From positions 1-64,000 of the IMG/VR virus record IMGVR_UViG_3300025000_000007: a DNA stretch of 64,000 bases; one strand, written 5' to 3'. Position 1 is the stretch's first letter. Each line of letters opens with the position of its first letter. The DNA comes from a virus. The notes beneath the pieces were generated by a model, which made no database searches, had not been told where the DNA came from, and worked only from the letters and a program-made list of their open reading frames with translations. The translations under genes and the position numbers were made by a program. Positions 1,023-50,797 of this stretch are shown piece by piece.

Positions 1023-3554
1023 TCATAAAGCCCCAATTGGCCCGCAGACCATTTCTTCACCTGTCTTTTCATTGTCAAATGAACATTCAAATAATCCCTC
1101 AATCCAATTTACAAAGTCTTTTCCTCTTTTAGTTGTGTATTCTTCGCTTACTGCACTTGAAATTAAGTTATAATCGTCTGATGAGCACACAAAGCGGAAA
1201 TCATCATAACCGAGTAACCGCCCCTTCTTTTCAATAAGTTGTTCTTCTGTGTGTGAACGTCCCATTTCATATTCGATTGCATACATTTTACCGTTAATTT
1301 CAAAGGTTAAATCAGCCCCTTGATTGTGGTCAGATGAACATTTAATCCCCTTTGATACTAGATAGCTCTCCATCTGGACAACGCAGACAAAATGCTCAAC
1401 AGTCATTTTACCTAGACCTTCCATATTCATTTGATTCCCGCTTATTGCCCCAGGTCTGTGCCACATAGTACAAGTTCCGCGTCCTGTAACTGAGGGCAGC
1501 CTGATAGCTTTTACCCACCCTTCCGATGCAAGATAAGAATCATTCCCTTCTACCCAATCTTTGAGAATCACGCCATGATGGGAAACCAGATGTTCATACT
1601 CTGGAAGTATCGAATTTTGAGTAAAACCGATAATCGGAGATGGTCTTTCTTTTTTATATCTTCCTTTGATTATTTCTGTTTCTTGCTCAGTTGCTTCAAA
1701 TCTGATAGGTATTTCTTCCCGCCGACTAGAGATTAAAAGTAGTCCTTCGCCCTGTTCACATTGGAGCAAATTCTCCACTGCCGTTTTAGAAAGTCCAAAA
1801 TACTCTCTAATGGGTCCTACTTTAGCTTCATCAAGTGTAGCACCCATGACAATTCCCATTGACATATTAGTCTTGAACTCTTCATCTACGTTATTCTTTA
1901 CAAGGTCACCGGGGTTCTGAGTCATTAGCCAGAGCGTCATCCCCTGCGCTCCACCCATAGCAACCGTATCAAGAAGGAAGTTACTTAAGTGTGAGCTCCT
2001 GAAAAAGACTCTGGCTTCATCTACAGCCATTATGGTTTCTTTCTCTAGATCAGTTCTAAAACGTCCTCCTACTATGCCAGTAACAAGAACATTCATAGCA
2101 GGCTTTATCTCTTCGTCTACACCTGAAATATCAATTACAATATAGTCCTTTGAGAAGTCTATATTATTTCCTCTCTTGTTCAGGTAGCAAAGGGAACCAT
2201 CTTCTCCGATTGGTGAAGTTTTCCTGTATAATGCTCCTGCGCTCTTCCTGGTTTCACTTGTATTGCTATCGTTCTCCATATCCTGTCTAAATAATTCTCT
2301 GAGATCTGAAAGGACCGGAAAATCTTTTTTCCATGTTTCCGGCTTGGTTCTTATTATTCCCTTCTGCTTGTAGAGTTTATGAAGTGTATCTTCAAGATAG
2401 CCTTTTGCCGCGCTTGAAAACTCTCCTTCCATCCAGACAGCAAAGAAGTTTTTCAAGGTTCTAATATGCTTGAAATATGCTGACGAATATGCAGCCGGTG
2501 AGTTTCCCATAGTTTGAGGGTCAAAGATGATCTGTAGAGGGTTTATAGACTGTCCGAATTCTCCGATGTCAATAACCGTTGCCCCGTCTCCGTAGTATTC
2601 AGCTACAGCCCTGTAATCAGTCCTTGAGTCTGCCTTTGGAGTAATATAGACAATCCTCTTTCCTAGCATGTCATGAGCACGCATTAAAAGCATAGATACG
2701 GTAAACGTTTTTCCTGACCTAGTTGGACCGAAAACCACCATATGCTGAGATGCCAGGGATGCCAGGTCTATTATTACCTCGGCATTGGTTTTCTTATCTT
2801 TCCCGAAGTAAAGCCCCTGTTCATCAATGCGAGAATTCAAAGAGGTTGATGTACAAAGAATTGCGGCTGTATCAGAATGTACCCGAATCCAGAATCTTTC
2901 GTCAGATGCTGGATAAGGTCTTGAAGCTATGAAAGCGGCTTTCATCATATCGTAAGGGATTGTATATTCTATAAGTTCAGATTGTAGGATTCCTAATATA
3001 TAAGATTCAGCCTGATATACTTCAGTTTCACCGCCCATTATCGTTATTATGAAAGAAGCATTGTAAACATTTTGAGAGTTATAGTATATTTCGTTGAAAG
3101 TTGCTCTGATATCAGTAGCTTCATTCTCAAGCTGGATATCCCCTATAGAGCCTTTCGTGTACTTCTTAGCGGTTTCCTGATCCATAGAATTGCTAATATA
3201 TGCCTTCTTCAATAGTTCGCTTGTCTCAGCCCTTGGGATCTTGATTAATCCAGTACAGATGTCTATCTTACAACCTACAAAGGAAAGCTCCTGTATGCGC
3301 TCTATCGCTCTGCTAGTCATACCCGGAGGAATCCCGTTAACGTCGTCTTCTTCTGATAGTCCTCCAACTATGCACCTCACATAAGTATGTTCATCAATGC
3401 GCAGGTGTGTATCATATTCTTCAAAGCGGTCAGGGGATATTAATCTTGAGAGGTCTTCCTCTTCTTCTTTATCGAGTATGTACTCCTCTGCTCTCATATT
3501 AAAGAGCCTTAGCCCCCTGCAGTAATCTTTCATGTATATTATAGGATTAATCAT
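1023..3554 (-). CDS. virB4: VirB4/TraC-like (HerA/FtsK superfamily) transfer ATPase with C-terminal PD-(D/E)XK-like domain
   Basis: Walker A GPTRSGKT preceded by HMVVFG, INPL motif, Walker B MAVDEAR, LMTQNPGDL and GEGLL motifs. The C-terminus has H...GADL...AIEYE. Confidence 0.85.
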   Translation of the reverse strand: MINPIIYMKDYCRGLRLFNMRAEEYILDKEEEEDLSRLISPDRFEEYDTHLRIDEHTYVRCIVGGLSEEDDVNGIPPGMTSRAIERIQELSFVGCKIDICTGLIKIPRAETSELLKKAYISNSMDQETAKKYTKGSIGDIQLENEATDIRATFNEIYYNSQNVYNASFIITIMGGETEVYQAESYILGILQSELIEYTIPYDMMKAAFIASRPYPASDERFWIRVHSDTAAILCTSTSLNSRIDEQGLYFGKDKKTNAEVIIDLASLASQHMVVFGPTRSGKTFTVSMLLMRAHDMLGKRIVYITPKADSRTDYRAVAEYYGDGATVIDIGEFGQSINPLQIIFDPQTMGNSPAAYSSAYFKHIRTLKNFFAVWMEGEFSSAAKGYLEDTLHKLYKQKGIIRTKPETWKKDFPVLSDLRELFRQDMENDSNTSETRKSAGALYRKTSPIGEDGSLCYLNKRGNNIDFSKDYIVIDISGVDEEIKPAMNVLVTGIVGGRFRTDLEKETIMAVDEARVFFRSSHLSNFLLDTVAMGGAQGMTLWLMTQNPGDLVKNNVDEEFKTNMSMGIVMGATLDEAKVGPIREYFGLSKTAVENLLQCEQGEGLLLISSRREEIPIRFEATEQETEIIKGRYKKERPSPIIGFTQNSILPEYEHLVSHHGVILKDWVEGNDSYLASEGWVKAIRLPSVTGRGTCTMWHRPGAISGNQMNMEGLGKMTVEHFVCVVQMESYLVSKGIKCSSDHNQGADLTFEINGKMYAIEYEMGRSHTEEQLIEKKGRLLGYDDFRFVCSSDDYNLISSAVSEEYTTKRGKDFVNWIEGLFECSFDNEKTGEEMVCGPIGAL

Positions 3555-4402
3555 AATATCGCCCTCTCGCTTGATATCTCTCTATAAAACTTCTTAATTT
3601 CCTTTGCGTCTTCCATTTGTCTAGGTTTTAGATTCGCTCTTTTCATGTTCAGTAAGAGTCCATCGAGAACCGCCCCCATTGCGATTTCTGCTGATTGAAC
3701 TGTGTCATGTTTTCCTAATCCAACGAACGCATAATAGCGATACATCATAATGTGGGTTTTATCACCCATGACTTTCTGAAGGATGCCATTGAGATGTTCA
3801 GCCCTTTCCTTGCTTCCTGCCTTGTTTGCTACTTTCATAATGTACTCGATTATTGCTTTTCTAGGGTTGACTTTACTAACAGCGTGGATCTTGAATATCC
3901 TTCCAGCGTGTAGCCCATCAACAAGACCTTTCATAACAAGTGAGTGCCCCTCTCTTTCATCTTCTGTGATTCTCTTAGGGTTAAGTGCAATAACTACCGC
4001 AAATTCATTACCAGTGAACTCTAAAAGCCCCTTTTGGTGTATTTTCCTAAGTGGATAAACTGTACTTAAGAACGAAACACCAGCAGTAAGTTTATTTTTT
4101 ACATGTGCTCCTGTCCGTTCTCCTATCCAGAAGTTTATTTTAGTCCACAATCTTTCCGCTTTTTTAGGGTTCACTCCGATGTATTTTAGCCAGATGCCTC
4201 CGAGAATAAGCAATCCTATAAAACATGTAAACTGTATCCGACTATCAGTATATTCTCTCATTACTGCAAGCAGGCGAGAGCTTAAGAATCCAAATATAAA
4301 AGTAAACCGGAACCAAGCAGAACGCGGGTTTGAATATGCGCTTTCCCTGTGATCTTTTATTACATTCGGTTTTCTAGGCTGCGTATATGGAGTTTCTGCC
4401 AT
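3551..4402 (-). CDS. Membrane protein of the transfer module (VirB3/PrgI/TcpE-like position)
   Basis: Two N-terminal hydrophobic helices followed by a soluble domain; stop overlaps the VirB4 start. Confidence 0.5.
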   Translation of the reverse strand: MAETPYTQPRKPNVIKDHRESAYSNPRSAWFRFTFIFGFLSSRLLAVMREYTDSRIQFTCFIGLLILGGIWLKYIGVNPKKAERLWTKINFWIGERTGAHVKNKLTAGVSFLSTVYPLRKIHQKGLLEFTGNEFAVVIALNPKRITEDEREGHSLVMKGLVDGLHAGRIFKIHAVSKVNPRKAIIEYIMKVANKAGSKERAEHLNGILQKVMGDKTHIMMYRYYAFVGLGKHDTVQSAEIAMGAVLDGLLLNMKRANLKPRQMEDAKEIKKFYREISSERAIL

Positions 4403-4403: not shown

Positions 4404-5345
4404 TTATACCCTCCTCAGTACTGCTAATTTACCTGTTTTCGTGATGGTTCCAAGTCCCCAATTACTAAACATCCATTTGTAATTTATATATGCGATTAAT
4501 AGAAACATTACAATGTAACCGCCTGCCCCATCTTCCCATCCTACCCATTTTATACAGATCAGGCAACCACATGCAATAAATAGACTGACAATCTGTAGAG
4601 ATACTATCTTGTGGTACTTGTTCCAAATCCAGGTTATTTCCTCATGCCAGAATCCTGAGAAATACCATACACCTAGAATCCTTGAAGCCGCGTAGACTAT
4701 AACAATAATCCAGGGTCTTATTATGAAAAATACAGCTACCCCTAGGTCAACGATACTCATAAAAAAGTACATCCAAGCGTTATCTAGGGAAGGCTCGATA
4801 TAATCAAGTACATTCATCATAGCGTACTGAGAGATTACAGTACACAAATCAAGTGTTGCGAGCACATAATACGGAGTGAAATATGCTACAATGCACATCA
4901 CAGACCCCCAGACAAATCTCTCTTCCGAAAGATCCCGCTCTCCGAGAACTTTTGAATATGCCTGGTAATTAGTTTTTGCTATTGTTGTAGCCGATGCCAT
5001 CCCAAAAATAAAAATAACTACCAGAATACCCCACGTATAATATGTGTTCTTCTCGAATTTTGCAATTTCGGGGATGTTCTGTGGCTCCGGGTTCATTGTC
5101 ATGAATTTTACGAGCGATGCTCTTGTAGCTCCGTATTCTGAACTTATGTTTTCATCTAATCCTGGAGCATACATCCCATCTATCCATATTGAATTTATAG
5201 CATCAGCCGCGGATCGGAGGATCATTTCCCAACCCTTTAAAAACATATTTGCCCCTGCTTCTTCTGGTCCGGGTCCCTCTGCGGCATGCACTGGAGCCGC
5301 CAAAAGAAATATTAAAAACATGCTAAAAATCATTATATTTTTCAT
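4404..5345 (-). CDS. Polytopic membrane protein, VirB6/CedA-like
   Basis: Signal peptide MKNIMIFSMFLIFLLAAPVHA (start moved from 5417 to ATG 5345), about 6 TM segments, in operon with VirB4. Confidence 0.6.
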   Translation of the reverse strand: MKNIMIFSMFLIFLLAAPVHAAEGPGPEEAGANMFLKGWEMILRSAADAINSIWIDGMYAPGLDENISSEYGATRASLVKFMTMNPEPQNIPEIAKFEKNTYYTWGILVVIFIFGMASATTIAKTNYQAYSKVLGERDLSEERFVWGSVMCIVAYFTPYYVLATLDLCTVISQYAMMNVLDYIEPSLDNAWMYFFMSIVDLGVAVFFIIRPWIIVIVYAASRILGVWYFSGFWHEEITWIWNKYHKIVSLQIVSLFIACGCLICIKWVGWEDGAGGYIVMFLLIAYINYKWMFSNWGLGTITKTGKLAVLRRV

Positions 5346-5389
5346 AAAAAAACAGCTCCTAAAAAAATCAATATATCCAGGATGTAGTA

Positions 5390-5737
5390 TTACATCCCGA
5401 ATTTTCCAGAAAACCAAACAAACAGATTGTAGAGGACATATGCTCCAATGCCAATCCAGAATACACTTATAGCGTGATTCTTAGAATTAGATGCCTGTTG
5501 ACTGTGCCCCCTCCTAGCTTCGATTGCACTCCACGCAGAAAAACCGAATATCCCTCCGATGATTATAAGCTGAAACAGAGAGTAAATATTCGGGATTGTC
5601 AATTCGGCATATGGCTGTATGGAAGCGTCTAAACCGTTTATTACTTTATCTGCGAATCCATCCCCTGGCGCTGCAAGTGCATTACCTGCTGACATCAAAA
5701 CCGAGCCAGCCCCTAGTACAATTTTTCTAAAGTTCAT
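5390..5737 (-). CDS. Pilin-like protein (VirB2/CedA1-like)
   Basis: Cleavable-looking leader ending ALA-A, then two hydrophobic helices with a short basic loop; first gene of the operon. Start set at ATG 5737. Confidence 0.55.
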   Translation of the reverse strand: MNFRKIVLGAGSVLMSAGNALAAPGDGFADKVINGLDASIQPYAELTIPNIYSLFQLIIIGGIFGFSAWSAIEARRGHSQQASNSKNHAISVFWIGIGAYVLYNLFVWFSGKFGM

Positions 5738-5781
5738 TATATCACAGTTGAATATTCTTTTTTGGTATATACTAAGCATTG

Positions 5782-5879: not shown

Positions 5880-6074
5880 ATGACTATACACAAATTAAAA
5901 GTAAGAATGAATATCAATGAGGATAGAGGCTCAGGTACTATTTATCTTTCAAAAGAACTCGTACAAAAAATAGTGCCACCTGGAACAGTAAAAACATCAG
6001 GTATAAGAGAAAAAGCAGACTTGATTGCATACTATGACGATGAGAAAGACGAAATATTAATAAAAGAGCCATAA
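5880..6074 (+). CDS. AbrB/SpoVT-like small DNA-binding protein
   Basis: 64 aa with GSGTIYLSKELV...DEILIK pattern. Confidence 0.55.
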   Translation: MTIHKLKVRMNINEDRGSGTIYLSKELVQKIVPPGTVKTSGIREKADLIAYYDDEKDEILIKEP

Positions 6075-6090: not shown

Positions 6091-6384
6091 TTGTATACAA
6101 AAATTGGAATAATACTATTATTAGCTCTTTTAACCTCTGGCTGTTTAGCCGATGCATTGACACAGGAAACTTATGTAGATCCGGATAATGAAAATAATAC
6201 TTTAATCTTGTTTGTGGATGGTAGTTACAGATGGCATCAAACAAATTATGATAAATCTGGAGAATGGTACGAAGAAGAAGAAATAATATATCTCAATATC
6301 GATTCTTTTTTTGGTGATCAAAAATTAATAAAAAAAGGAAGTTCTGTTTTTTGGTCAAATGGTGCTGAATGGGTAAAAAATTAA
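6091..6384 (+). CDS. Small lipoprotein (possible entry-exclusion protein)
   Basis: Hydrophobic leader with lipobox LTSGC; adjacent to the transfer operon. Confidence 0.6.
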   Translation: MYTKIGIILLLALLTSGCLADALTQETYVDPDNENNTLILFVDGSYRWHQTNYDKSGEWYEEEEIIYLNIDSFFGDQKLIKKGSSVFWSNGAEWVKN

Positions 6385-6393: not shown

Positions 6394-9300
6394 TTAAATG
6401 AATTTACCCACTACCATATAAAGAACTTTTAATATTGCCCTTCCGTATATTCCTATTATCACGATAAAACTGAGTAGGGGATAACTCAATATCTTTAAAC
6501 TGTCGTCTTCTATTACTTCATACTCAAATTCTTCAATCTCGAAGGAATCATACGGGGTAACCACGGTAACATTTAATTTTCCAATATCGAATGGCTCTTC
6601 TATGCGTACTCCTCTCGGATTCTGTGTTATTTGCTTTCCTGAGATGGACCACGAATCTATTGTTTCATATCGAGTACTCTTAAATCCATTTTGTGCTGTA
6701 CCGATGTAACCTAAGAGCCTGCGTTCAGTGCATTCAGATTCATTATAGGATGTATCAACTCTTACTATTCCGTCTATCTCGGGTGTATACACAATAGCAT
6801 GGGACCCATTATAATGAGTTACATACACTTTTGGAGGCTCGAACACAGGGAATATATCAGGCGTATCATATTTTTTTACAAATTCTACGGTTTCGCTTTT
6901 TTCCTTGTAGTAAGGGATCTTCACGGATTGCCCTAACACATTATAAGTTTTGTACGCTTTTACTTCGTACTTTGTTTTTACGGTTAGTTTTACGGTTAGT
7001 TTTCCATCATTTGAGGTAAGTTTTGTACTTGTTTTCTGGCTCACTGGTCTTTTTGCCAGATTCTCAGTTCCAAATAGGACTATCGCGCATTTATCCGGGC
7101 TTTCTGGAATGTATGTTTTATTCCCTATGCGTATTTGCCCACTGTATCCTGTGATATCTATCCATGCGTCTGTATAACGTCCTTTATGTGCCCATTCTTT
7201 CTGAGGCGCAAGCGTTCCCTGCTCAAGATATGCACCGTCTGAGAACTCCATATCAAGTACATCAAATATTGAATCAAACACTTCCTCACTATCCTCAATA
7301 CTAGGAGGATTCTCATATGAAATATCCTTCGATATCCCTTGAGTCTCTAACTCATCGGCATCCACAAATTCATTATCATGAATATACACGTTTTCAGTTC
7401 CATCATGCAGCCAGATTGCCTTAAGCCCAGGATCAGAAAACGTATTAAATCGAACTTCTATATCTTGAGTTTTCCAATCAGGCTTCCTTGCATCATAACC
7501 TTTTGAAATGCCTGCATCCCCTATTTGAAGCCCGTTTTCCCCATTTTTATGTGCTCCGTAACTGTCGCCACCATACGAAAAGAATAAATTATTCTCAATC
7601 AGACAGTTTTTGCAGTTATCAAGTCTCGCACAATCCGAGGTTATTCCAGCTATTTTATTATCCTGGAGAACTCCATTTTTCACACACGAGAGGTAGATCC
7701 CTTCATGCTGACAATTTGAAATTATATTATCATAACAGGAAACTCCATCAGCATACCTAATATAAATCCCATCTGAGAAGGAATTATACAATTTCATATC
7801 GTGAATTTCTATATTTCCACCTAAATTATTAGATGATCCCGCAAGAATAATCAATTTCTCGCAGTTGTGCTCTTTTCCTGCGCCATCATTCGCCCATTTT
7901 GAGTCAAAAGCTCCGCAGTTTCCATCTATTGAAAACCCGCAAATCTCGATATCGTGTGGAACTATTGTCTTGTTATCGATGTCTTTAGCAGGGCATCCTA
8001 CAACAGGAATCCCCTCTCTGAACCACCAGGAAGATTCTGAATCAACTCTTACGATAGTTTCAGGTGATCCTATCATGGATGTTCCAGGATAAATCCAGAT
8101 GGTCCCATCTACTACATAGAGTCCGTCAAGATAGACAGTTCCTCCGGTTTTAGAAGCTTCCAGGAGAGCATCGTTAATCTGTTCCTGATCCCTCTTTCCA
8201 TCACAATCTGTAACATAAATATAATTTTCAGGATCTTTTTGGATGTTATCTTTTTTAGCAGGTTCTGGAATTACAATATTATCCAAATCGACTACAATAT
8301 CAGTCTTGCCTTTCGCGCTATCATCCAAAACATTATCAAGAGACACATGAGAATCCAAATCAAGCCTATCAAATGTGTTTTCAACTATCCGTACTTTCCC
8401 GCCAGAATGGCCATTGCCTGAAATCTCGATATCGGATTTCCCGATGTCAGAAAATACATTATCTGTAATTTCTATGTTTTCATCGTCCTGATTGCACAGG
8501 ACATATACCCCGTACCCTGAAATATCAGAAAACTCATTTTTCCTGATTACAATATTATCATATGCTACCTGCTCTTTGTCTGCATCTCCGAAATATACCC
8601 CAGACCTACCACCTTTTTGAATATTATTTTCAATAAGAAGAGTAGTTCCCTTCGCGTACCATGTCCCTCTATATGTAAAAACAGAATCTCCTTCAATATA
8701 ATTATCTCTGACTATGTGTACACCATTATCTGTACTGCCTCGGTTTGCTACAGCCCCATAACCACCGTATATTTTATTATTTGCAAACAGAGAGGTTAAA
8801 GTGCCATCCCCAAACGCATAAAATCCATTACCCGGATGAATCTCATTATTTGTGACTACATAATCAAGGGCTACATTATGAGCGTCTACAACGTTTGCAC
8901 CTGCGATAGTTGCCCCGACCATGTAATTATTTTTTATAATTACACCCCTCACAAGAGTACTTCTTTCATCTGTATTTCCGGTTACGGCATGTCTGCAATT
9001 CTCGATATGGTTATTTTCTACGAGAGCATACGCAGTCCCTGACCATATTCCTACCCCATACCCGGACCCTGGCTTGAGACAGTCATAAATTTCATTGTTT
9101 GAGGCTTCCACATTAAACGAAGAATAAAATGAGATTGCGGACATTCCAGAGTCTTTGAACCAGCAGTCTTTAACTGAGCTATCAATGCAGTATCTTATAG
9201 ATAGTGCCTCATTTGGTGTTGTTTTCCCGCTATCCTGGAATCTAATATTTGAAACGTGAATTTCAATTGGGCGTCTAATCTCATATCTTGGGGAATCAGA

Positions 9301-9831
9301 TAAACCATAGTCTCTCAGGAGAGGTTCATTCAGTGTTACAGTGTTGCCTGATACGCTTTCTATTTTGTAGAGTTCTCCTGTTAGTTGAGGCCCCGTTTCA
9401 TCATCTTTTCCGTAGTCCAGAGGACACCAATATACTTGTTTCCAGATCTTGATCAGGTCATTCTTTTTAACCTGTGAAGCGTCGCTTAATGTAATTTGAG
9501 TATCGCCTTTTTTTGAGGATGTTGGCAGTTTACCTTCTGTTATTTCCGAGCCTTCAAAATATAAACCATTATGAGATCCCGATCCTGTATTTAGATGGAT
9601 GGTAACTGTTCCTTCTCCCTTTAGAGTCAGGCTTTTATCTTTCTGGTAGACCCGGCTTGTAATGTAATAATCCCCTGATGGGATGATTATAGTATCCCCG
9701 TTAGATGCGCTATCTAATGCTTTTTGGATGTCTGTGCCTGTAGTTCCTGATACTGTTATTTCAGCAGCCGTACAGAGATTAATTGAATATAATAAAAGTA
9801 GTAAGATTAATACAACTTTTTTCACATGCAT
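6394..9831 (-). CDS. Secreted, C-terminally anchored protein with two parallel beta-helix domains (pectin-lyase fold, disaggregatase-like)
   Basis: Signal peptide, PbH1-type repeats and a C-terminal TM helix. Domain 1 aligns by eye with the tail spike 48578-50797; domain 2 aligns with 40519-41946. Confidence 0.8.
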   Translation of the reverse strand: MHVKKVVLILLLLLYSINLCTAAEITVSGTTGTDIQKALDSASNGDTIIIPSGDYYITSRVYQKDKSLTLKGEGTVTIHLNTGSGSHNGLYFEGSEITEGKLPTSSKKGDTQITLSDASQVKKNDLIKIWKQVYWCPLDYGKDDETGPQLTGELYKIESVSGNTVTLNEPLLRDYGLSDSPRYEIRRPIEIHVSNIRFQDSGKTTPNEALSIRYCIDSSVKDCWFKDSGMSAISFYSSFNVEASNNEIYDCLKPGSGYGVGIWSGTAYALVENNHIENCRHAVTGNTDERSTLVRGVIIKNNYMVGATIAGANVVDAHNVALDYVVTNNEIHPGNGFYAFGDGTLTSLFANNKIYGGYGAVANRGSTDNGVHIVRDNYIEGDSVFTYRGTWYAKGTTLLIENNIQKGGRSGVYFGDADKEQVAYDNIVIRKNEFSDISGYGVYVLCNQDDENIEITDNVFSDIGKSDIEISGNGHSGGKVRIVENTFDRLDLDSHVSLDNVLDDSAKGKTDIVVDLDNIVIPEPAKKDNIQKDPENYIYVTDCDGKRDQEQINDALLEASKTGGTVYLDGLYVVDGTIWIYPGTSMIGSPETIVRVDSESSWWFREGIPVVGCPAKDIDNKTIVPHDIEICGFSIDGNCGAFDSKWANDGAGKEHNCEKLIILAGSSNNLGGNIEIHDMKLYNSFSDGIYIRYADGVSCYDNIISNCQHEGIYLSCVKNGVLQDNKIAGITSDCARLDNCKNCLIENNLFFSYGGDSYGAHKNGENGLQIGDAGISKGYDARKPDWKTQDIEVRFNTFSDPGLKAIWLHDGTENVYIHDNEFVDADELETQGISKDISYENPPSIEDSEEVFDSIFDVLDMEFSDGAYLEQGTLAPQKEWAHKGRYTDAWIDITGYSGQIRIGNKTYIPESPDKCAIVLFGTENLAKRPVSQKTSTKLTSNDGKLTVKLTVKTKYEVKAYKTYNVLGQSVKIPYYKEKSETVEFVKKYDTPDIFPVFEPPKVYVTHYNGSHAIVYTPEIDGIVRVDTSYNESECTERRLLGYIGTAQNGFKSTRYETIDSWSISGKQITQNPRGVRIEEPFDIGKLNVTVVTPYDSFEIEEFEYEVIEDDSLKILSYPLLSFIVIIGIYGRAILKVLYMVVGKFI

Positions 9832-14251: not shown

Positions 14252-14983
14252 ATGAAAGTAATATATGAACCAAAAGGAAAAGCTAAAGAATACGCTGACC
14301 TAGCTGTAAATCTGTATAACGGTTGTTCTCATGGCTGTGAATACTGCTATGCTCCTGCTGTCATGCACAAGACTAAAGAAGATTTTTTTAAGATACCATC
14401 ACCAAGAAAGAACATTATCGAACTGTTAAAAAAAGACATAACTGAAATGGTTGTGAATTGCGACGAAAGAGAAGTGCTTATGTGTTTCTCTTGTGATCCG
14501 TATCAACCAATCGACACTGAATACAAACTAACACGGGAAGCGGTCAGGCTATTTTCAGAGCATGATATCAATTTTGCCATACTCACAAAGGGCGGTAAAC
14601 GCTCAGAAAGAGATTTTGATATCATGGAATGGAGTTCTGACCTTTGCAGATATGGAGCTACCCTGGTATTCTGCAATGACGATCACTCAAAAAAATATGA
14701 ACCATTCGCGGCTCCAACTTCGGAAAGGATAGAGAGCTTAAGGAAAGCTCATGAGATGGGTATCAGGACATGGGTGAGCTTAGAACCTGCTTGGAGTTAT
14801 GCAGATGTATCAGACTTGATTCAGAGGACTTCCGGATATGTGGATGAGTATAAGATAGGAAAGCTGAATTATCATGCTCATGCAAAAGAAATTGATTGGA
14901 AAGTGTTTAAGGAAGAGGTCGTTTATTTGTGTGATGGATTGGGAGTTAATTATACTTTGAAAAATGATTTAGCAATTCTTTAA
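14252..14983 (+). CDS. Radical SAM protein (SPL/DUF5131-like)
   Basis: GCSHGCEYCYA CxxxCxxC motif; DPYQ, LTK and WVSLEP motifs. Confidence 0.85.
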   Translation: MKVIYEPKGKAKEYADLAVNLYNGCSHGCEYCYAPAVMHKTKEDFFKIPSPRKNIIELLKKDITEMVVNCDEREVLMCFSCDPYQPIDTEYKLTREAVRLFSEHDINFAILTKGGKRSERDFDIMEWSSDLCRYGATLVFCNDDHSKKYEPFAAPTSERIESLRKAHEMGIRTWVSLEPAWSYADVSDLIQRTSGYVDEYKIGKLNYHAHAKEIDWKVFKEEVVYLCDGLGVNYTLKNDLAIL

Positions 14984-15109
14984 TTTACTTTTCTCCCTCT
15001 TTTGTCTTCACAACCTGAACTATTCTCTTTTAATTCACTCTTTTTTAGTTGAATCTTGGATGAAAGTTGGATGTTTGTTTACTTTACTTCGGAAGCGTTA
15101 ACAATTCTC

Positions 15110-15460
15110 TAACTTAAATACAACAATATAATATTATATTATTGGTATATTAATGTATATTTTATTGTTCAATTTAATAAAACTCATTAGATTAATATTG
15201 GTTTGGTATAGCAATGTTTGTATTAAACAATTGTTTATTTTACGATATTAATATTATGTTTAATAATTAAAGTAATATTATTTATTTACTGTAGATATCG
15301 TTAATAAATTACGATATTTTTATTAAAGTCGTTGGATTATTAGTTATCGAGTAAATTAATATGTCTTTTTTTACTTGTTATAATTTGCACATATTTGCAC
15401 CAGAAACTATTTATCCTAATATTGCCATTAATATTAGTAGTAATATTGTTAATAATTGGT
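15110..15460. other. Extremely AT-rich non-coding tract
   Basis: Runs of TAATATT/ATTAAT with very few G/C, upstream of the AbrB-recombinase pair. Confidence 0.6.
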
Positions 15461-15466
15461 GATTTT

Positions 15467-15628
15467 ATGGCAGCAAATCAGGTAACTATCCAACGTACTA
15501 ACACAGGACAATTAACCATTACAATCCCTATAGCCATTGCTGGCTCGAAGGGGTGGGGAAAAGGCACGAAATTAGAATTTGTAGATGATAGATATGGAGA
15601 AACTGTCCTGAAGGAAGTGAAAGAATGA
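15467..15628 (+). CDS. AbrB/MazE/SpoVT family DNA-binding protein
   Basis: GQLTITIPIAIA...GWGKGTKLEF motif; stop overlaps the recombinase start (ATGA). Confidence 0.75.
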   Translation: MAANQVTIQRTNTGQLTITIPIAIAGSKGWGKGTKLEFVDDRYGETVLKEVKE

Positions 15629-16158
15629 CCGTCAGAGTATATAGGAGGGTGTCAACAAATCTTCAGGATTTTGAAGAACAGAACCGAGGAATTGAAAGAT
15701 ACCTACAAAATAACGGGATAAGCTCATATGTAAATTATGAAGAACCTGGGATAACCGGGACCATAGCTGAACGTCCTGTATATCAAAAATTGCTTTCTGA
15801 GGTAGTCAGTGGAGATATTGTATTAGTTTATGAATACTCAAGGATGTGGAGGGATCTTGAAGAACAGGCTAAAATTATAAAGCGTTTTATGTCGATTGGG
15901 GTAATTTTAATATCTGCGGTAGAGGGTCCGGTAAAAACCATAGACGATGTTTTGAAGTTGAATATACTAGGGTCCGTTAATCAACACGAGGCTGAAAGAT
16001 TCCGCAGGCGTTCTATGGAGGGTATTAAAGCACTACAGGAGAAAGTCTCGAAGGGTGAAGCTATTTGGAACGGTAGGGGGAAGGATAAGACCCCGAGGAA
16101 AACGGATGGATATTTTAGAAGATGGGCTAACAATCGTATAGGGGTCGCACATGAATAA
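15625..16158 (+). CDS. Small serine recombinase (resolvase/invertase family)
   Basis: YRRVST catalytic motif, TG...ERP, GD.VLV...SR.WR and the E helix; no clear C-terminal HTH. Confidence 0.9.
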   Translation: MTVRVYRRVSTNLQDFEEQNRGIERYLQNNGISSYVNYEEPGITGTIAERPVYQKLLSEVVSGDIVLVYEYSRMWRDLEEQAKIIKRFMSIGVILISAVEGPVKTIDDVLKLNILGSVNQHEAERFRRRSMEGIKALQEKVSKGEAIWNGRGKDKTPRKTDGYFRRWANNRIGVAHE

Positions 16159-21000: not shown

Positions 21001-21123
21001 CCTAGAAAGATTACGGATTCTGAAAATGTTCTCTACTGATAAATTATAATATTCATAGGAGGGCCATATCTTTTTATTTGCGGGATCATAGGAATAATGC
21101 CCGCCGGGGATTACATTTTTCAT
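18097..21123 (-). CDS. Fibre/adhesin with internal CLec (Mtd/FGE-like) domain; DGR target-like
   Basis: MVERPKFYY, LHPWF, YIGAKEA, WRGIENIYGNCWEF and FGGSW...IGARLEF motifs characteristic of Mtd-like CLec domains. Confidence 0.75.
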   Translation of the reverse strand: MKNVIPGGHYSYDPANKKIWPSYEYYNLSVENIFRIRNLSRDMEFYNADNPKYPLVMENGCITHSYPSDGLANDKLQIVLRTPIPGSLELLEATDGVITLETTGKVLVLPTENAAILPSYNEYVANTNRLTADFGGLKGSESPDYLPGTLYTSTDGVYLTDITGQNSTKTLTAGKLKELGYLAVDTAAHTITQEFTARNDGDNNPSVAIDSSIITGWSAFDGTGTISSTDGRLIFSGNAKSTGIHSITKALNINLSSPTFVSFDIVCSQSCTLYLRLESYTGSSYPIMSYTGSRFPVSANTLTRFVLPIHAPVATSGQNPSRLDAGFLFTAISRIWIGIGDVGSESANTYSISNIYTNVAKSAYVEVQVPDNLSATSLALYTHNGTAYQLASTHSLDAAYAQVAQTSANFTAADGTKFDDVYGAGAGRAVFPKGSSGETKDGSSGNITYSGNKGTSKRIGLRVDLPPASGLFSQCRFKTVIRYIGETGSQISLNQSTDQSNIIGFERDSSNESPTLRRIDVDGNTVTSYNFDTNPIFSGQRRCVISGDKILYGSNARGDGLDLSGASGNLMVERPKFYYKYEYSAPYYRYWFSPYPHTGFTLHPWFVQRGGTDRDFVYIGAKEASGEIESGVFKLKSATGKVPCTGSVAYPNLPNSGRLTLDDAETYAKNNGTGWGITDVWGYSAIQALIFCETGTFDTQTALGMGIVDLASGTGYAGKTTGADSIDSRLGTNGTGTGSGTNGQTPVCWRGIENIYGNCWEFIAGLNLNLSDGSYTILKRDGTGTPSATLAEGSYETGAGTVPVSEDGYINGIQSEELGALSFIPSANAGSSSTYLCDYFYYPRYNPSIMRFGGSWDHGPRAGPGCRGAYNAPSASARYIGARLEFIADNLHSVENMGSTTHEFTDSTNTSYGLQNLTKPWLALYDPSTSIIDFYLHTHRPQALSFKRDETGTIHELNLYPGEGSIYHGQISFADLALDTDSDLIPDCLEASINGSITQFLKNYTMVI
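18469..18573 (-). repeat. DGR variable-repeat-like segment
   Basis: 105 nt with 76 G+C (72%) and only 9 A by hand count; no codon ends in A; encodes RFGGSW...GARLE. Confidence 0.65.
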
Positions 21124-40518: not shown

Positions 40519-41946
40519 TCACACCTTCTTATAAATTGAATACTCTTCCGTCAATGATTTTGAAATATCAAGAACGTCCTGAGAACTGCATGTTACAATT
40601 ATTTTCACAGGTTCCTCCGGAGGTTCAGGCTCTCCAACTGCCCCTCCTGAGCTTTCATCTTCTTCTATAATACAATATCGAGAAGCTTCATTCGTACCGT
40701 TATATCTCCCTGCTTCACCTCCGGAATAAATACAAGGGGAATTAACAGAGTCCAGAACATAACCTGATTCTGTATAGTGTCCACCCATAGCAGAAAGATG
40801 ATATCCATTCACGAAAAGCGGATCTTTCAGAACAGGGGCAGAGCCTGTTAACCCGTTAGAGACATTTCCATAAAAACAATTATCTGAAATATCAAGGATA
40901 TATCTGCCCTGATTTGCAATTGCAAGTCCCTGAGTTCCGACGAGATTCTTTTTTGTATTTGTTATGATGTTGTTTTTTACAGTAGCTGAATAACCTGAAC
41001 TTGAAGAGGTCGTCTGGTATCTCCCAAAAAGAATTCCATAACCGAGGCAACCGTTTATTGTATTATCCTTAATAGTGACATTATCCCATCCATCAACAAC
41101 CATGCCGCCAACTCCTGGAATACCATTTCCAGCAGGCATCAAACCACAATTAATAATTAGGTTATTACGTACTAACAGATTTTTAGCTGCATTAATGGCC
41201 GTTGCGCGGAGTCCTGCCGCCCATACCCCCGGTCCTAAAGTGTTCTGGATTGTATTATTATAGATAGAGATCTCAGAGGTTGTTTCATCCTCTTCTGAAT
41301 TTTCAACCTGAATCCCTGGGGAATATGCTTCAGTCGTCCCAAACACTAGATTATCATGGAATGATACTCCCTTAGATCCCTTGCTCCGGAGTGCTGAATT
41401 TGTCCGGCAATATGTGGTATTGTTCCAAGCCTCTACACCTGAACAGCGATCCGCATAAAGCCCCTCATGTCCGGCCTCTTTTATTAAATTTCCACAATAA
41501 AGAATATTTTCGCAATCGGTTAATCTTGCAATGTCACCCTGTGATTCTCCCGCTATAATATTTCGAATGGTTATGTTTTTTCCATTTTTAAGGCCAACGA
41601 AATTATCAAATCCCTGCCCGTGAGGTATTCCAGCGGCAGCCTGCGCTAATCTATTCCCCTTGAAAGTGATATTCTCAACTAAAATATCTGAAATAGTGCT
41701 TCCTGCTTGCCCGAAAATTGGAGTCATAGAGGGAAATAGAGTTCGAGATAACCCCGGAGAAAGTGTAATTACTGCGCTCGTATCTTCGGGCCCTGTTATT
41801 GTGGTTCCCGAATTTAGTTTGTAGGGATAATTAGCAGTATATTTATTATCCTTGAGTAATTCGATTTCGGAATAGTGGAAACCGTCGCCCACTTTGTCAA
41901 AAGTTTCCTGCTGTAAAGTTCCGCTGGATAGTTCAAGAGTTGCCAT
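40519..41946 (-). CDS. Disaggregatase-like parallel beta-helix protein without signal peptide; candidate endolysin
   Basis: PbH1 repeats, GHEGLY, NS..R and GPG.W motifs; preceded by a holin-like gene. Confidence 0.65.
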   Translation of the reverse strand: MATLELSSGTLQQETFDKVGDGFHYSEIELLKDNKYTANYPYKLNSGTTITGPEDTSAVITLSPGLSRTLFPSMTPIFGQAGSTISDILVENITFKGNRLAQAAAGIPHGQGFDNFVGLKNGKNITIRNIIAGESQGDIARLTDCENILYCGNLIKEAGHEGLYADRCSGVEAWNNTTYCRTNSALRSKGSKGVSFHDNLVFGTTEAYSPGIQVENSEEDETTSEISIYNNTIQNTLGPGVWAAGLRATAINAAKNLLVRNNLIINCGLMPAGNGIPGVGGMVVDGWDNVTIKDNTINGCLGYGILFGRYQTTSSSSGYSATVKNNIITNTKKNLVGTQGLAIANQGRYILDISDNCFYGNVSNGLTGSAPVLKDPLFVNGYHLSAMGGHYTESGYVLDSVNSPCIYSGGEAGRYNGTNEASRYCIIEEDESSGGAVGEPEPPEEPVKIIVTCSSQDVLDISKSLTEEYSIYKKV

Positions 41947-44836: not shown

Positions 44837-44840
44837 TAAA

Positions 44841-48577: not shown

Positions 48578-50797
48578 TCACAATTCAGTATTATTCGCCT
48601 CTATATCGTTTGCCCCGGCGAATAAAAATTTCGTGCCCGTCATACCCTTCGCGGTGTTCCCGGCAATCACATTATAATTCGACGTTCCTGCTGTTTTGAT
48701 AGCCTGCCCCGGAAATCCTCCTGTATCGATTATTGTATTATTCTGCATAATGACATTTGATATATCTGTAATCAGTATCCCAGAATAACTGTGGTATGCA
48801 TAATTACAGTCTATGATGGTATTATTTGAAATCACCATTGAGTCCGGGGTGAACGAATTTGCATCTACTGAGATACCATTCCACGACGCATTATAGATAT
48901 TATTTCCTTCGATTACTACATTTGAGTGATCCTGATTTAATTTTATCTGGATGGCATCATACGAAATATTGCTAATGTGATTATTTCGGATAACTAACTG
49001 TTTAAACGCTTCAATGTGGTATTCGTCATCCAGGAATACAATCCCATAGTCTCCACCGTTCTGATAATTATTCTCAATGAACAGTTCCTCATCGATGCAC
49101 CAATACGCACCCTTATACAGACGAGAATTTGCTCCCCCATAAAGATAATTGTCAGTTATGATGTGAACTCCACCGTCTATGGTCCCTCTACGTTCTACTG
49201 CTCCGTTTCCTCCATAGATTCTATTATTTCTAAATGTGGAATATTGTGTCCCATCCCAGAATGCAACAGTTGAACCTACGGGCAGATACATAGTATTATC
49301 GACTACATCCATATCGATACACATATTATGCGCGTCAACACAGCAGGACGTGACTACAATAGCGGCTGTCAGGATATTATTATGTACGGATACTCCTCGG
49401 ATAAGTGAATTTCTCTCATCTGTATTCATTGTTATACAATGTCTACAATTTTCCACATGATTTGAATATATTTCAGCATGTGCAACGCCCGACCAGATCC
49501 CTATTCCATATCCAGACGCTCCGCCAGCTGTTTTTATACTGTCATATACATAATTGTTGAACAGTCTGACATTATATGATGAATATACTGAGATCCCTGC
49601 AAGCCCTGCGTTTTCCACCCGGCATCTCGATATTGAACTATTGACACAATATCTAATAGATATCCCGTTATGGACCCCGGTTTCGTCTGCGTCAAATATT
49701 CTTAGATTTTCGATGTTGACCTCTACGGGTCTGTATACGTTTACTTTCGGAGTGTCGCCTGTCGCATAATCACGCAATAAATTTTCAGTTAGTGTTATAT
49801 CGTTGCCTGATACACTCTTAACGCGATACATTTCTCCTGTTAGTTGATCGTCGTAATCATCGGGGCAGTACAATACATTTTTCCAGAGTTTGATTATATC
49901 CCCTGCCTGAACGTATGCGCCGTTCGATACTTTAATAGTATTGTTGCCAGCGACTGATGTTTCAGTTACGGATAGGTTTTCAACGATGATCTGTCCCTCT
50001 AAATAAAGCCCGTTTGTTGTCCCTGCAACTACATTTTTATTTATAGTCACTTTCCCTAACCCAATTATATTTAATGATTTCCCGGCACATGATACTCTCC
50101 CAGTCCAATTATAAACACCAGGCAGGACGTAGATAGTAGTTCCCCCATCTGCGGCAGCGAAAGCCTCGCCCCATTTGACATGATCAGATGTTCCTGTGCA
50201 TTCATATGCTGCGCCAGATCCTGAAGTCCCGATTGTAATTCCCAGAGCAGCGTCACTGTTTATGACAGTCCCCCCCCCTCCTGCAATTTCGATCCATTCT
50301 ATGTTATCAGATAAAAATTTAGTACCTGTGCCCTCTCCTGTAGGGCATAATCCAGGATTGCTAGTGGTCGCATTTAGCGTAGTTACATTATCAGCCACGG
50401 CGAGTTCGGTTATTTTTATTGCATCTATCCCATCTGATTTATGGCTGGCAGCGTGGCCGGTGGGGTATCTATTATCCGCCAATCTGACATCGTTTCCCTC
50501 GCATGCCGTCCCAGCAGTAGTCCCAAATGTCACCCCTCCGACCCCCTCTGGGACTCCCCATGTGATATCATCCCTGAGATATTTTGTTCCGGTCCCCTCA
50601 CCCTTTGGACATAGTCCATGTTTTGTTGTGCTGGAGTCAAGGTCAGTGATGTCGGTAGTGGTGCCGAGTTTATCGAGTGCAATTACATCAGTACCCCCAA
50701 ACTCATGGGCTGCTGAGTGGTCTGGTATGCTGCTTAGCGCGGCCTCAAAATCCACGGCATTCAATACAATTTTACATTTTCCATCTACGATAGGCAT
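48578..50797 (-). CDS. Tail spike/receptor-binding protein with beta-helix depolymerase-like domain
   Basis: Last gene of the tail operon; duplicated N-terminal H..H..G.D...GLCP.GEGTGTK.L.D..W unit, then PbH1 repeats. Confidence 0.75.
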   Translation of the reverse strand: MPIVDGKCKIVLNAVDFEAALSSIPDHSAAHEFGGTDVIALDKLGTTTDITDLDSSTTKHGLCPKGEGTGTKYLRDDITWGVPEGVGGVTFGTTAGTACEGNDVRLADNRYPTGHAASHKSDGIDAIKITELAVADNVTTLNATTSNPGLCPTGEGTGTKFLSDNIEWIEIAGGGGTVINSDAALGITIGTSGSGAAYECTGTSDHVKWGEAFAAADGGTTIYVLPGVYNWTGRVSCAGKSLNIIGLGKVTINKNVVAGTTNGLYLEGQIIVENLSVTETSVAGNNTIKVSNGAYVQAGDIIKLWKNVLYCPDDYDDQLTGEMYRVKSVSGNDITLTENLLRDYATGDTPKVNVYRPVEVNIENLRIFDADETGVHNGISIRYCVNSSISRCRVENAGLAGISVYSSYNVRLFNNYVYDSIKTAGGASGYGIGIWSGVAHAEIYSNHVENCRHCITMNTDERNSLIRGVSVHNNILTAAIVVTSCCVDAHNMCIDMDVVDNTMYLPVGSTVAFWDGTQYSTFRNNRIYGGNGAVERRGTIDGGVHIITDNYLYGGANSRLYKGAYWCIDEELFIENNYQNGGDYGIVFLDDEYHIEAFKQLVIRNNHISNISYDAIQIKLNQDHSNVVIEGNNIYNASWNGISVDANSFTPDSMVISNNTIIDCNYAYHSYSGILITDISNVIMQNNTIIDTGGFPGQAIKTAGTSNYNVIAGNTAKGMTGTKFLFAGANDIEANNTEL

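What the first reader, a model, noticed from the sequence alone, without database searches (positions are those of the whole stretch)
6394..9831. Surface-anchored chimera of a tail-spike paralog and a lysin paralog
Seen: domain 1 (WKQVYWCPLDY...QLTGELYKIESVSGN...LLRDY...SIRYC...GYGVGIWSG...NHIENCRH...NTDER...VDAHN) matches the tail spike at 48578-50797 (WKNVLYCPDDY...QLTGEMYRVKSVSGN...LLRDY...SIRYC...GYGIGIWSG...NHVENCRH...NTDER...VDAHN) over about 400 aa. Domain 2 (CQHEGIY...GLQI...IEVRFNTF...AIW) matches 40519-41946 (AGHEGLY...GIQV...ISIYNNTI...GVW). The protein has a signal peptide and a C-terminal TM anchor. Inference: the virus displays both its entry and exit glycan-active domains on the carrier cell. 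This could act as a mating adhesin/depolymerase aimed at the virion's receptor, or as receptor-destroying superinfection exclusion, and it could change host aggregation.
Basis: partly seen in the sequence, partly recalled or inferred. Interest (0 to 1): 0.85.

Follow-up and report, generated by a model that had tools for sequence, protein, structure and literature searches.

The report
Tail-spike-tipped surface protein of viral T4SS cassette
A head-tailed archaeal virus encodes a membrane-anchored surface protein that carries a diverged copy of its own tail-spike sugar-binding domain and always sits beside conjugation-type secretion genes, which suggests the virus may have a second, contact-dependent way of reaching cells.

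Summary
The ORF (6394-9831, minus strand, 1145 aa) is real. It has a signal peptide, two beta-helix domains, a two-beta-sandwich stalk and a C-terminal TM anchor.

Domain 1 is truly homologous to the virus's own tail spike: 42% identity over 457 aa, E 2e-109. A tree places the spike inside domain 1's clade. Raw identity to Methanosarcina chromosomal PKD/disaggregatase-repeat proteins is higher (45-54%).

Domain 2 is not a paralog of the 40519-41946 gene. The two are only remotely related (hhalign 91.9%, 20% identity).

Stalk plus anchor is the core of a small family (90 representatives). Its genes lie just upstream of TrbL/VirB6-like, PrgI/VirB3-like and VirB4-like genes:
- 18 of 19 loci for beta-helix forms;
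- 8 of 8 informative loci for stalk-only forms.

These loci include tailed-virus genomes and one 21-kb plasmid-like element. N-terminal add-ons vary between relatives. In two further lineages they are 74% identical to a signal-peptide-less beta-helix gene of the same genome.

Best reading (about 0.5): this is the outward-facing glycan-binding or glycan-cutting arm of a virus-borne conjugation-type apparatus, aimed at the virion's receptor glycan. Enzyme activity, DNA transfer and host are all unproven.

The parts
6394..9831 (-). Target ORF, 1145 aa (P0001): signal peptide, beta-helix 1, linker, beta-helix 2, stalk, TM anchor
9763..9831 (-). Signal peptide, residues 1-23 (MHVKK + hydrophobic core + CTAA|E)
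   Evidence: hydrophobicity; the same pattern in relatives. The cleavage site is inferred, not predicted by a dedicated tool.
8371..9729 (-). Domain 1 (residues 35-487): variable N-terminal beta-helix add-on, homolog of the own tail spike and of Methanosarcina PKD/disaggregatase-repeat proteins
8215..8370 (-). Linker, residues 488-539, charged and Pro/Lys/Asp-rich
   Evidence: sequence; it lies between the alignment ranges
7300..8214 (-). Domain 2 (residues 540-844): constant beta-helix of the cassette-linked family (Pfam Beta_helix, NosD; relatives also carry PF12708)
6496..7299 (-). Stalk (residues 845-1112): one helix plus two beta-sandwich domains; the conserved core of the family
   Evidence: model pLDDT 86.6; no significant PDB fold match; 90 representatives including stalk-only proteins
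6397..6495 (-). C-terminal TM helix and short basic tail (residues 1113-1145)
   Evidence: no PGF/PEF-CTERM model hit
5390..5779 (-). Small protein with a signal peptide and two TM helices (pilin-like topology; the likely start is the MNFRK methionine at 5737)
   Evidence: no family or PDB match
4404..5417 (-). Polytopic membrane protein, TrbL/VirB6-like (the likely start is at 5345)
   Evidence: TM segments; Atlas leads with feature scores 0.90-0.93 and structural TM 0.64 to TrbL-family clusters
3551..4402 (-). 283-aa protein with one N-terminal TM; PrgI (VirB3)/archaeal TraC-like by weak Atlas leads; its stop overlaps the VirB4 start
1023..3554 (-). VirB4-like ATPase, 843 aa, with Walker A GPTRSGKT and Walker B IMAVDE
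   Evidence: homologs
48578..50797 (-). Tail spike (P0002), no signal peptide, downstream of the tape measure (54779-57520) and the 866-aa tail protein
40519..41946 (-). Disaggr_assoc beta-helix protein (P0003), no signal peptide or TM; a remote homolog of domain 2

Best explanation
The gene encodes a Sec-exported, C-terminally membrane-anchored protein. It is the outward-facing component of a conjugation-type (VirB4 / TrbL-VirB6-like / PrgI-VirB3-like / pilin-like) T4SS-like cassette. That cassette is carried by a family of Methanosarcina-associated head-tailed viruses and by at least one plasmid-like element.

The family's core is the stalk plus anchor. Onto it a constant beta-helix (domain 2) has been added. 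In this virus a further N-terminal beta-helix (domain 1) has been added, which is a diverged duplicate of the virus's own tail-spike receptor-binding/depolymerase domain.

Proposed working, all inferred:
- The stalk holds the two beta-helices beyond the S-layer.
- There they bind, and probably cleave, the acidic envelope polysaccharide (methanochondroitin or S-layer glycan).
- This opens a path through the matrix for the apparatus. It also targets neighbouring cells that display the same glycan the virion uses.
- In function, not ancestry, this would correspond to the cell-wall hydrolases and adhesins of Gram-positive conjugation systems.

What is shown: domain architecture, homologies, synteny, and the recurrence of intragenomic duplicates.
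What is inferred: surface display, glycan substrate, enzymatic activity, and any DNA or protein transfer by the cassette.
For: Architecture.

Synteny of beta-helix forms: a VirB4-like ATPase lies downstream on the same strand in 18 of 19 related loci. Sixteen were found by tblastn, L007, and L022. The 19th locus, L020, is a 2.8-kb contig that ends 1.2 kb after the gene.

Cassette order: [anchored protein][~113-129 aa, SP+2TM][300-375 aa, 5-7 TM][280-320 aa, 1-2 TM][VirB4-like]. It is conserved in the 15 loci whose ORFs were laid out, with VirB4 identity as low as about 22%.

Stalk-only relatives (SP + stalk + TM, about 320 aa): of 36 metagenome loci, all 8 with at least 3.7 kb downstream have a VirB4-like gene downstream on the same strand (7 of them also a PrgI-like hit, 4 a TrbL-like hit). 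Five shorter loci show a TrbL-like hit (L035 also a PrgI-like hit) before the contig ends.

VirB4 assignment: the best NCBIfam families are conjugal VirB4 types (3.7e-37 and 1.9e-20) in the window and in the 5 relatives tested. Walker motifs are intact.

Other cassette genes: TrbL and PrgI leads from the Atlas.

Carriers: the cassette occurs in records with a TerL homolog (7 of 14 viral records, including the DTR genomes G002 and G013 and the 100%-complete G007). It also occurs in a 21-kb DTR element with a D5-like primase-helicase and no detectable structural gene.

Domain 1 and the spike: E 2e-109. The spike is nested with domain 1 at 100/100 support, and at 98/94 with the fusions. AU tests reject the alternatives (p 0.0057 and 8e-6).

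Recurrence of duplicates:
- G010: the fusion's domain 1 is 74% identical over 518 aa to a beta-helix gene adjacent to that virus's tail spike.
- G006/G008: a different add-on is 74% identical to a signal-peptide-less 388-aa beta-helix ORF just upstream.

Modular add-ons in relatives: none, spike-like, GH16, Disaggr_assoc-like, or another beta-helix.

Glycan-active character:
- PHROG and phage tail-spike hits for domain 1.
- Domain 2's fold and N-terminal profile match polyuronate enzymes (AlgE epimerases, alginate epimerase/lyase, RbmB lyase) and tailspikes.
- Charged and aromatic residues (E153, R173, R187, Y258, R280, H281, R295, D316, H318, D342, R364) are invariant in 30 of 30 rows, covering spikes, fusions and host proteins.
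Against: - No coupling protein (VirD4/TraG-like), relaxase or second ATPase was seen among the ORFs I scanned. The scan covered roughly 45 of the larger ORFs, not all.
- All VirB4 hits are far below NCBIfam curated cut-offs (127.5 against 590 bits), so none is a family member by NCBI's rule.
- The pilin-like gene is called so from topology only. It has no Pfam or PDB sequence match.
- The TrbL and PrgI assignments rest on language-model/structure leads, which the tool itself rates as leads.
- In this virus the target is separated from the rest of the cassette by 614 bp holding two small opposite-strand ORFs. It is therefore probably its own transcription unit.
- Domain 1 is more identical to host chromosomal proteins than to the spike. 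The spike sits on a long branch, and the tested groups were named after the first tree was seen.
- No enzymatic, localisation or expression data exist.
- The host is inferred only from homologs in Methanosarcina genomes and from the Disaggr_assoc domain.
Confidence: 0.5

Rival explanations
1. Receptor-destroying enzyme for superinfection exclusion and/or progeny release. The infected or carrier cell displays the spike's glycan-cleaving domain on its own surface. This strips the receptor, so further virions do not adsorb and new virions are not trapped. The link to VirB4 would be incidental.
For: Domain 1 shares ancestry and invariant charged residues with the virion spike. The protein has a signal peptide and an anchor. 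In this virus the gene is probably transcribed apart from the cassette.
Against: The family core (stalk plus anchor) exists without any beta-helix and is still glued to the VirB4 cassette (8 of 8 informative loci). Most relatives lack a spike-like add-on. This reading does not explain synteny across VirB4 proteins as little as about 22% identical.
Confidence: 0.2
2. Matrix-loosening or dispersal factor, a virus-encoded 'disaggregatase'. It degrades methanochondroitin around the producing cell before lysis, or during carriage. This breaks up aggregates so that virions or carrier cells can spread.
For: - Relatives of domain 1 in Methanosarcina chromosomes carry disaggregatase-repeat and PKD domains.
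- Domain 2 is a remote homolog of a Disaggr_assoc protein and resembles polyuronate-acting enzymes.
- Passages of the review PMC12369344 state that disaggregatase cleaves methanochondroitin and that cells inside aggregates resist a Methanosarcina virus.
Against: A membrane anchor limits reach compared with the secreted host enzyme. This reading gives no explanation for the VirB4 synteny. No Disaggr_assoc or Disaggr_repeat Pfam hit was found in the target.
Confidence: 0.15
3. One reading: a fusion of paralogs of the virus's entry enzyme (tail spike) and its exit enzyme (lysin).
For: Domain 1 matches the spike. A profile comparison shows remote homology of domain 2 to the 40519 gene. In relatives (P0008, P0011, P0016, P0019, P0052, and the second domain of P0007) a 40519-like Disaggr_assoc beta-helix is indeed fused to the same chassis.
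Against: Direct comparison is non-significant. Domain 2 has 40-48% identical free-standing relatives that form their own family with their own signal peptide and anchor. Nothing tested here shows that the 40519 gene is a lysin; it lacks a signal peptide or TM and its PHROG hit is 'tail spike'.
Confidence: 0.05

Closest known systems
Phage tailspike / depolymerase beta-helix proteins (for example Pseudomonas phage tailspike 4RU5, LKA1 gp49, Dettilon gp208)
   Same: Right-handed parallel beta-helix. Domain 1 hits PHROG tail-spike families and phage tail spikes at 24-34% identity. Domain 2's model matches tailspike structures.
   Different: Tailspikes are virion parts with no signal peptide or TM. 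This protein is exported and membrane-anchored, carries two beta-helices in series, and is encoded with T4SS-like genes rather than in the tail module.
Cell-wall hydrolases and adhesins of conjugative T4SS (VirB1, PrgK/TcpG, PrgB; recalled, not tested)
   Same: An envelope-directed, membrane- or wall-anchored protein encoded in the same gene cluster as VirB4, VirB6-like and VirB3-like genes.
   Different: No lytic transglycosylase, CHAP/NlpC or LPXTG domain was found. The presumed target is an archaeal heteropolysaccharide, not peptidoglycan. This is an analogy, not homology.
Methanosarcina mazei disaggregatase and the Pfam Disaggr_assoc / Disaggr_repeat proteins
   Same: Beta-helix proteins of Methanosarcina aimed at methanochondroitin (passages of the review PMC12369344). 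Host relatives of domain 1 carry Disaggr_repeat. Domain 2 is a remote homolog of a Disaggr_assoc protein.
   Different: The target has no Pfam hit to either disaggregatase family. It is anchored, not secreted free.
AlgE-type mannuronan C5-epimerases / alginate epimerase-lyases and RbmB lyase
   Same: The N-terminal part of the domain-2 profile matches them by sequence (E 6e-8 to 5e-5), and the model matches by fold. All act on acidic polysaccharides.
   Different: Only about 90 residues match by sequence. Catalytic residues could not be compared.
Archaeal Ced/Ted DNA-import systems and archaeal conjugative plasmids (recalled)
   Same: A minimal set of VirB4-like ATPase, VirB6-like membrane protein and small two-helix pilin-like protein. 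CedB is a weak hit of the ATPase (3e-9).
   Different: The ATPase scores much better with conjugal VirB4 models than with CedB. The cassette is carried by tailed-virus genomes and includes the stalk/beta-helix protein.

Membership tests
Right-handed parallel beta-helix glycan-active proteins (Pfam Beta_helix PF13229 / NosD PF05048) | Pfam score above the gathering threshold | tested here: met
   Beta_helix 98.9 bits against 25.9; NosD 61.5 bits against 23.6
Right-handed parallel beta-helix glycan-active proteins (Pfam Beta_helix PF13229 / NosD PF05048) | Predicted beta-helix fold that matches solved depolymerases | tested here: met
   Domain 2 model pLDDT 79. Foldseek finds 36 PDB chains at E<=0.001, all listed being beta-helix enzymes, tailspikes or adhesins. 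Domain 1 was not modelled; its fold is inferred from homology.
Right-handed parallel beta-helix glycan-active proteins (Pfam Beta_helix PF13229 / NosD PF05048) | Catalytic activity on a polysaccharide | not testable with these tools
   Only conservation of charged residues across 30 of 30 homologs
Virion tail spike | Encoded in the tail module, no export signal, N-terminal tail-attachment domain | tested here: not met
   The target has a signal peptide and a TM. It lacks the spike's residues 1-210. It lies about 39 kb from the tail module.
Disaggregatase-related (Pfam PF08480 / PF06848) | Pfam match | tested here: not met
   No hit at E<=0.1 in the target. The 40519 gene scores 93 bits. The relationship is remote only.
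Conjugation-type T4SS (MPF) gene cluster | VirB4-family ATPase | tested here: inconclusive
   The best NCBIfam families are conjugal VirB4 types (3.7e-37) but lie far under curated cut-offs. Walker A and B are present.
Conjugation-type T4SS (MPF) gene cluster | VirB6/TrbL-like and VirB3/PrgI-like membrane proteins next to VirB4 | tested here: inconclusive
   Conserved polytopic and 1-2-TM genes in 15 loci. Atlas leads to TrbL (0.90-0.93; TM 0.64) and PrgI/TraC-like (0.84-0.89). No Pfam hit.
Conjugation-type T4SS (MPF) gene cluster | VirB2-type pilin | tested here: inconclusive
   Topology of signal peptide plus two TM helices with a short charged loop is conserved. No sequence match to solved pilins.
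Conjugation-type T4SS (MPF) gene cluster | Coupling protein and relaxase (for DNA transfer) | tested here: not met
   None among the ORFs scanned. The scan was not exhaustive. Archaeal systems may lack canonical relaxases (recalled).
T4SS cell-wall hydrolases (VirB1/PrgK/TcpG) | Lytic transglycosylase or CHAP/NlpC-P60 catalytic domain | tested here: not met
   No such Pfam or NCBIfam hit. The similarity is functional analogy only.
Archaeosortase substrates (PGF-CTERM / PEF-CTERM) | C-terminal sorting motif model | tested here: not met
   No NCBIfam hit at E<=0.01. The C-terminus is a plain TM plus a short tail.

The most novel reading that the evidence does not exclude
A family of archaeal head-tailed viruses carries a working conjugation-type apparatus and so has two routes of spread: free virions, and contact-dependent transfer between neighbouring cells embedded in the methanochondroitin matrix, where virions cannot diffuse. 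The anchored protein re-uses the tail spike's glycan-recognition and cleavage module so that both routes aim at the same cells. Its swappable N-terminal modules would then be a second host-range determinant that co-evolves with the virion's spikes.
Probability: 0.25. Interest if true: 0.9.

Novelty: new variant of a known kind. Interest (0 to 1): 0.72.

Why it matters
Entry, exit and cell-to-cell spread of methanogen viruses are almost unknown. Methanosarcina aggregates are reported to shield inner cells from a virus (passage of PMC12369344).

Three things follow if the reading holds:
- A conserved T4SS-like cassette in complete tailed-virus genomes would blur the line between virus and conjugative plasmid in archaea. 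Its surface arm is built from the virus's own receptor-binding modules.
- It gives a concrete and testable candidate for how mobile elements cross the methanochondroitin wall.
- It points to exchange of beta-helix modules between viral spikes and the host's own disaggregatase-type surface enzymes.

Eight full-text searches found no paper describing a VirB4 cassette in Methanosarcina or other archaeal tailed viruses. The library lacks most subscription journals, and supplements were closed.

Tried and rejected
- Single-protein scans of viral contigs with domain 2 plus the C-terminus and with P0016 found nothing. The stalk-only alignment A7 found nothing in viral contigs.
- Pfam at E<=10 gave nothing for the pilin-like, TrbL-like and stalk parts, and only chance-level hits for the 283-aa protein.
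- Profiles of the pilin-like (A3) and 283-aa (A4) families against PDB sequences gave only chance-level hits.
- The stalk model has no significant PDB fold match. The best E is 0.029, to Ig-like tandems. A rank-37 hit to a conjugation NTF2-like protein (E 0.47) is too weak to use.
- Complex prediction of the TrbL-like protein (A5) with the stalk plus anchor (A2) returned no verdict. It is not used as evidence either way.
- The look-up of sequencing runs listed four DNA rows from one groundwater study and no RNA holder. It says nothing on expression.
- I considered and dropped the idea that the protein is a virion component (it has a signal peptide and TM, and the virus has an HK97-type capsid and a tail) or a PGF-CTERM S-layer-type protein (no motif).
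- I considered that the spike's nested position is a long-branch artefact. Two models gave the same placement and AU tests reject the alternatives, but the groups were named after the first tree.
- Papers: I saw passages only (find mode) for PMC4158269, PMC12369344, PMC9796341, PMC12451623 and PMC11705971. All other papers were seen as search listings only. No supplements were opened.

Full report
**1. What the window is.** The window is bases 1-64000 of a 73,429-bp IMG/VR virus record with direct terminal repeats, rated 100% complete. The repeat is 116 bp. The genome encodes a head-tailed virus:
- large terminase, portal and Mu-F-like proteins in the last 9.4 kb;
- an HK97-type capsid protein at 60959-61828;
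- a tape measure at 54779-57520, an 866-aa tail protein, and a tail spike at 48578-50797.

The only sequencing runs that hold the region are four DNA rows of one groundwater study.

**2. The observation.**
- The ORF at 6394-9831 (-) is intact and 1145 aa long.
- It has a hydrophobic N-terminus ending CTAA|E and a C-terminal hydrophobic helix.
- Residues 37-487 align with residues 211-661 of the tail spike at 42% identity, E 2e-109.
- Against the 40519-41946 protein nothing is significant by BLASTP (best E 0.077).
The same profile against the tail spike gives 3.3%.
- Pfam places the 40519 protein in Disaggr_assoc, but not the target.

So the domain 1 claim is confirmed. The domain 2 claim shrinks to remote homology.

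**3. Relatives and modular build.** A database search returned 50 relatives. Their alignment ranges split the protein in two.

Domain 1 (residues 35-487) matches:
- three other full-length fusions (P0005, P0007, P0009);
- many proteins of 670-1240 aa that carry PKD and disaggregatase-repeat domains. Several are on Mb-scale contigs named as Methanosarcina (sp. T3, barkeri, lacustris, WWM596), at 45-54% identity. This is higher than to the own spike.

Residues 540-1140 match a free-standing family of about 630 aa at 40-48% identity. These proteins have their own signal peptides and C-terminal anchors.

Other relatives carry different N-terminal modules on the same chassis:
- GH16 (P0006, P0027);
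- a Disaggr_assoc beta-helix related to the 40519 gene (P0008, P0011, P0016, P0019, P0052, and as the second domain of P0007);
- another beta-helix (P0051).

A search of 1.84 billion representatives with the C-terminal 306 residues found only 90 proteins at E<=0.001. Many are about 320-aa proteins that are just signal peptide, stalk and anchor. The hierarchy is therefore: stalk plus anchor (core), then domain 2, then a variable add-on.

**4. Structure.**
- Domain 2 plus the C-terminus was modelled at pLDDT 79. It is a beta-helix whose best PDB matches are tailspikes, AlgE mannuronan epimerases, an alginate epimerase/lyase, RbmB lyase and polygalacturonases.
- Its N-terminal profile also hits the AlgE enzymes by sequence.
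- The stalk was modelled at pLDDT 86.6. It consists of a helix, two beta-sandwich domains and a TM helix. It has no significant PDB match.
- The VIA wide library was unavailable.

**5. Phylogeny of domain 1.** Thirty rows were used: all hits with at least 350 aligned residues, plus the first spike of G010. P0004, the target's own cluster, was left out. The tree was built with LG+G4.
- The own spike, with its 75% relative P0041, sits on a long stem inside a 100/100 clade with the target, P0005, P0007 and P0010. It is sister to the fusions at 98/94.
- A mixture-model quick tree on 29 rows agreed.
- AU tests reject a tree with the spike held outside with the long outgroup branches (p 0.0057). They also reject a single clade of all virion-type proteins (p 8e-6). 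The groups were named after seeing the first tree.
- In a second virus (G010, 75 kb), the fusion P0009 and P0029, a beta-helix gene adjacent to that virus's spike, are 74% identical over 518 aa and are sisters at 100/100. DNA identity is 75% over 1.4 kb.
- In G006 and G008, a different add-on is 74% identical to a 388-aa beta-helix ORF without a signal peptide lying just upstream.

The add-on has therefore been copied from a gene of the same genome at least three times (G006 and G008 count as one lineage). Charged and aromatic residues are invariant across spikes, fusions and host proteins.

**6. Context.** On the same strand, downstream of the target, lie four genes:
- a 129-aa protein with a signal peptide and two TM helices;
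- a polytopic protein;
- a 283-aa protein with one TM, whose stop overlaps the next start;
- an 843-aa ATPase whose best NCBIfam matches are conjugal VirB4 families (3.7e-37, 1.9e-20; under the cut-offs), with intact Walker motifs.

Domain-2 relatives were found in 14 viral-contig loci and in 5 short contigs filed in bacterial MAGs. A VirB4-like ATPase follows on the same strand in 18 of these 19 loci. The remaining contig ends too early.

The five-gene order is conserved in the 15 loci I laid out. In three of them the small TM gene sits upstream instead.

Atlas look-ups give TrbL/VirB6 leads for the polytopic protein and PrgI/TraC-like leads for the 283-aa protein.

Stalk-only genes in 36 metagenome loci are followed by PrgI-like and VirB4-like genes in 7 of the 8 loci with enough downstream sequence (L063: VirB4-like only); a TrbL-like hit was seen in 4 of these 8.

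Seven of the 14 viral records have a TerL homolog. One 21-kb DTR record (G011) has the cassette, a D5-like primase-helicase and no structural homolog.

All 81 VirB4 homologs lie on contigs of 112 kb or less. None is on a named archaeal chromosome.

**7. Peculiarity of this virus.** Between the target and the pilin-like gene there are 614 bp with two small plus-strand ORFs: 5880-6074, and 6091-6384 (lipoprotein-like). An AT-rich TTTATATC box lies about 30 nt upstream of the target's ATG. The target is probably transcribed on its own. This is an inference.

**8. Interpretation.** The evidence ties the protein to the T4SS-like cassette more firmly than to virion entry or lysis.

Most likely it is the cassette's outward arm. 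The stalk would lift two glycan-active beta-helices through the S-layer into the acidic matrix. Domain 2 would be the general tool. Domain 1 would add the specificity of the virion's spike.

Whether the cassette moves the viral genome, other DNA or proteins is unknown. No coupling protein or relaxase was found among the ORFs scanned.

Rivals (receptor destruction, aggregate dispersal) remain possible for the beta-helix parts. They do not explain the synteny of the stalk core.

**9. Comparison and novelty.** The parts are known kinds: tailspike-type beta-helices, disaggregatase-type host enzymes, and minimal VirB4/VirB6/VirB3 clusters.

The combination appears undescribed in the searched literature. 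That combination is:
- a membrane-anchored stalk protein as a fixed member of such a cluster;
- decoration with swappable glycan modules copied from the carrier virus's own spike-type genes;
- carriage in complete head-tailed archaeal virus genomes.

I rate it a new variant of known kinds, with interest 0.72.

Noticed in passing
window 44339-47543 (+): A type IV CRISPR-Cas-like effector set without an obvious array in the ORF list. It comprises Csf1-like (44339-44836, 1.2e-7), a 125-aa ORF, Csf2/Cas7-like (45218-46114, 2.1e-15), Csf3/Cas5-like (46038-46820, 2.9e-14) and a PAPS-reductase/CysH-like gene (46830-47543). All hits are under the cut-offs. From recall it resembles plasmid-borne type IV-B systems, which is unusual in an archaeal tailed virus.
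   Followed up: partly
window 5880-6074 (+) and 6091-6384 (+): Two small opposite-strand ORFs are inserted between the target and the rest of the cassette. One is a 64-aa protein. The other is a 97-aa protein with a lipoprotein-like LTSGC signal. The 97-aa ORF has no homolog in the 19 related loci; the 64-aa ORF was not searched for.
   Followed up: partly
window 18097-21123 (-): A 1008-aa protein matches PHROG 5302 'tail protein' (4e-58). It lies far from the tail module, in a block of higher G+C (0.43-0.45 against about 0.35 in the flanks). Homologs lie a few kb upstream of the cassette in L006 and L012. It may be a further receptor-binding protein.
   Followed up: no
L014 (record G011, 21,095 bp, DTR): A plasmid-like element with a D5-like primase-helicase and the same cassette (492-aa beta-helix anchored protein, TrbL-like, PrgI-like, VirB4-like). 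No TerL or other structural homolog of the window's virus was found.
   Followed up: partly
proteins P0015, P0020, P0022, P0024, P0032, P0046 (Methanosarcina chromosomes): Host secreted PKD/disaggregatase-repeat proteins share the domain-1 beta-helix at 45-54% identity and interleave with viral spikes in the tree. This suggests repeated exchange between host matrix enzymes and viral spikes. The direction is unknown.
   Followed up: partly
L032 569-1364 and 1501-2667 (record G006): Upstream of the cassette in G006 lie a Disaggr_assoc-like gene, two small TM proteins (117 and 143 aa, holin-like by position only) and the 388-aa beta-helix that is duplicated in the anchored protein. This may be a lysis-type module.
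   Followed up: no
window 36238-38325 (+): A 695-aa protein has a very strong match to PHROG 1735 (E 2e-267, unknown function) and no Pfam or NCBIfam hit.
   Followed up: no
window 14252-16158 and 28377-29712: Radical SAM protein (14252-14983), small serine recombinase (15625-16158), thymidylate synthase-like and thymidylate kinase genes, and a Gp3-like recombination-directionality-factor-like domain at 33632-35038.
   Followed up: no
L018-L022: All five genome-collection hits to the domain-2 family are short contigs (2.8-12 kb) filed in bacterial MAGs (Bacilli, Gammaproteobacteria, Lentimicrobiaceae, Leptospirales, Proteiniphilum). They carry the archaeal-type cassette, so they are probably mis-binned mobile-element contigs.
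   Followed up: no
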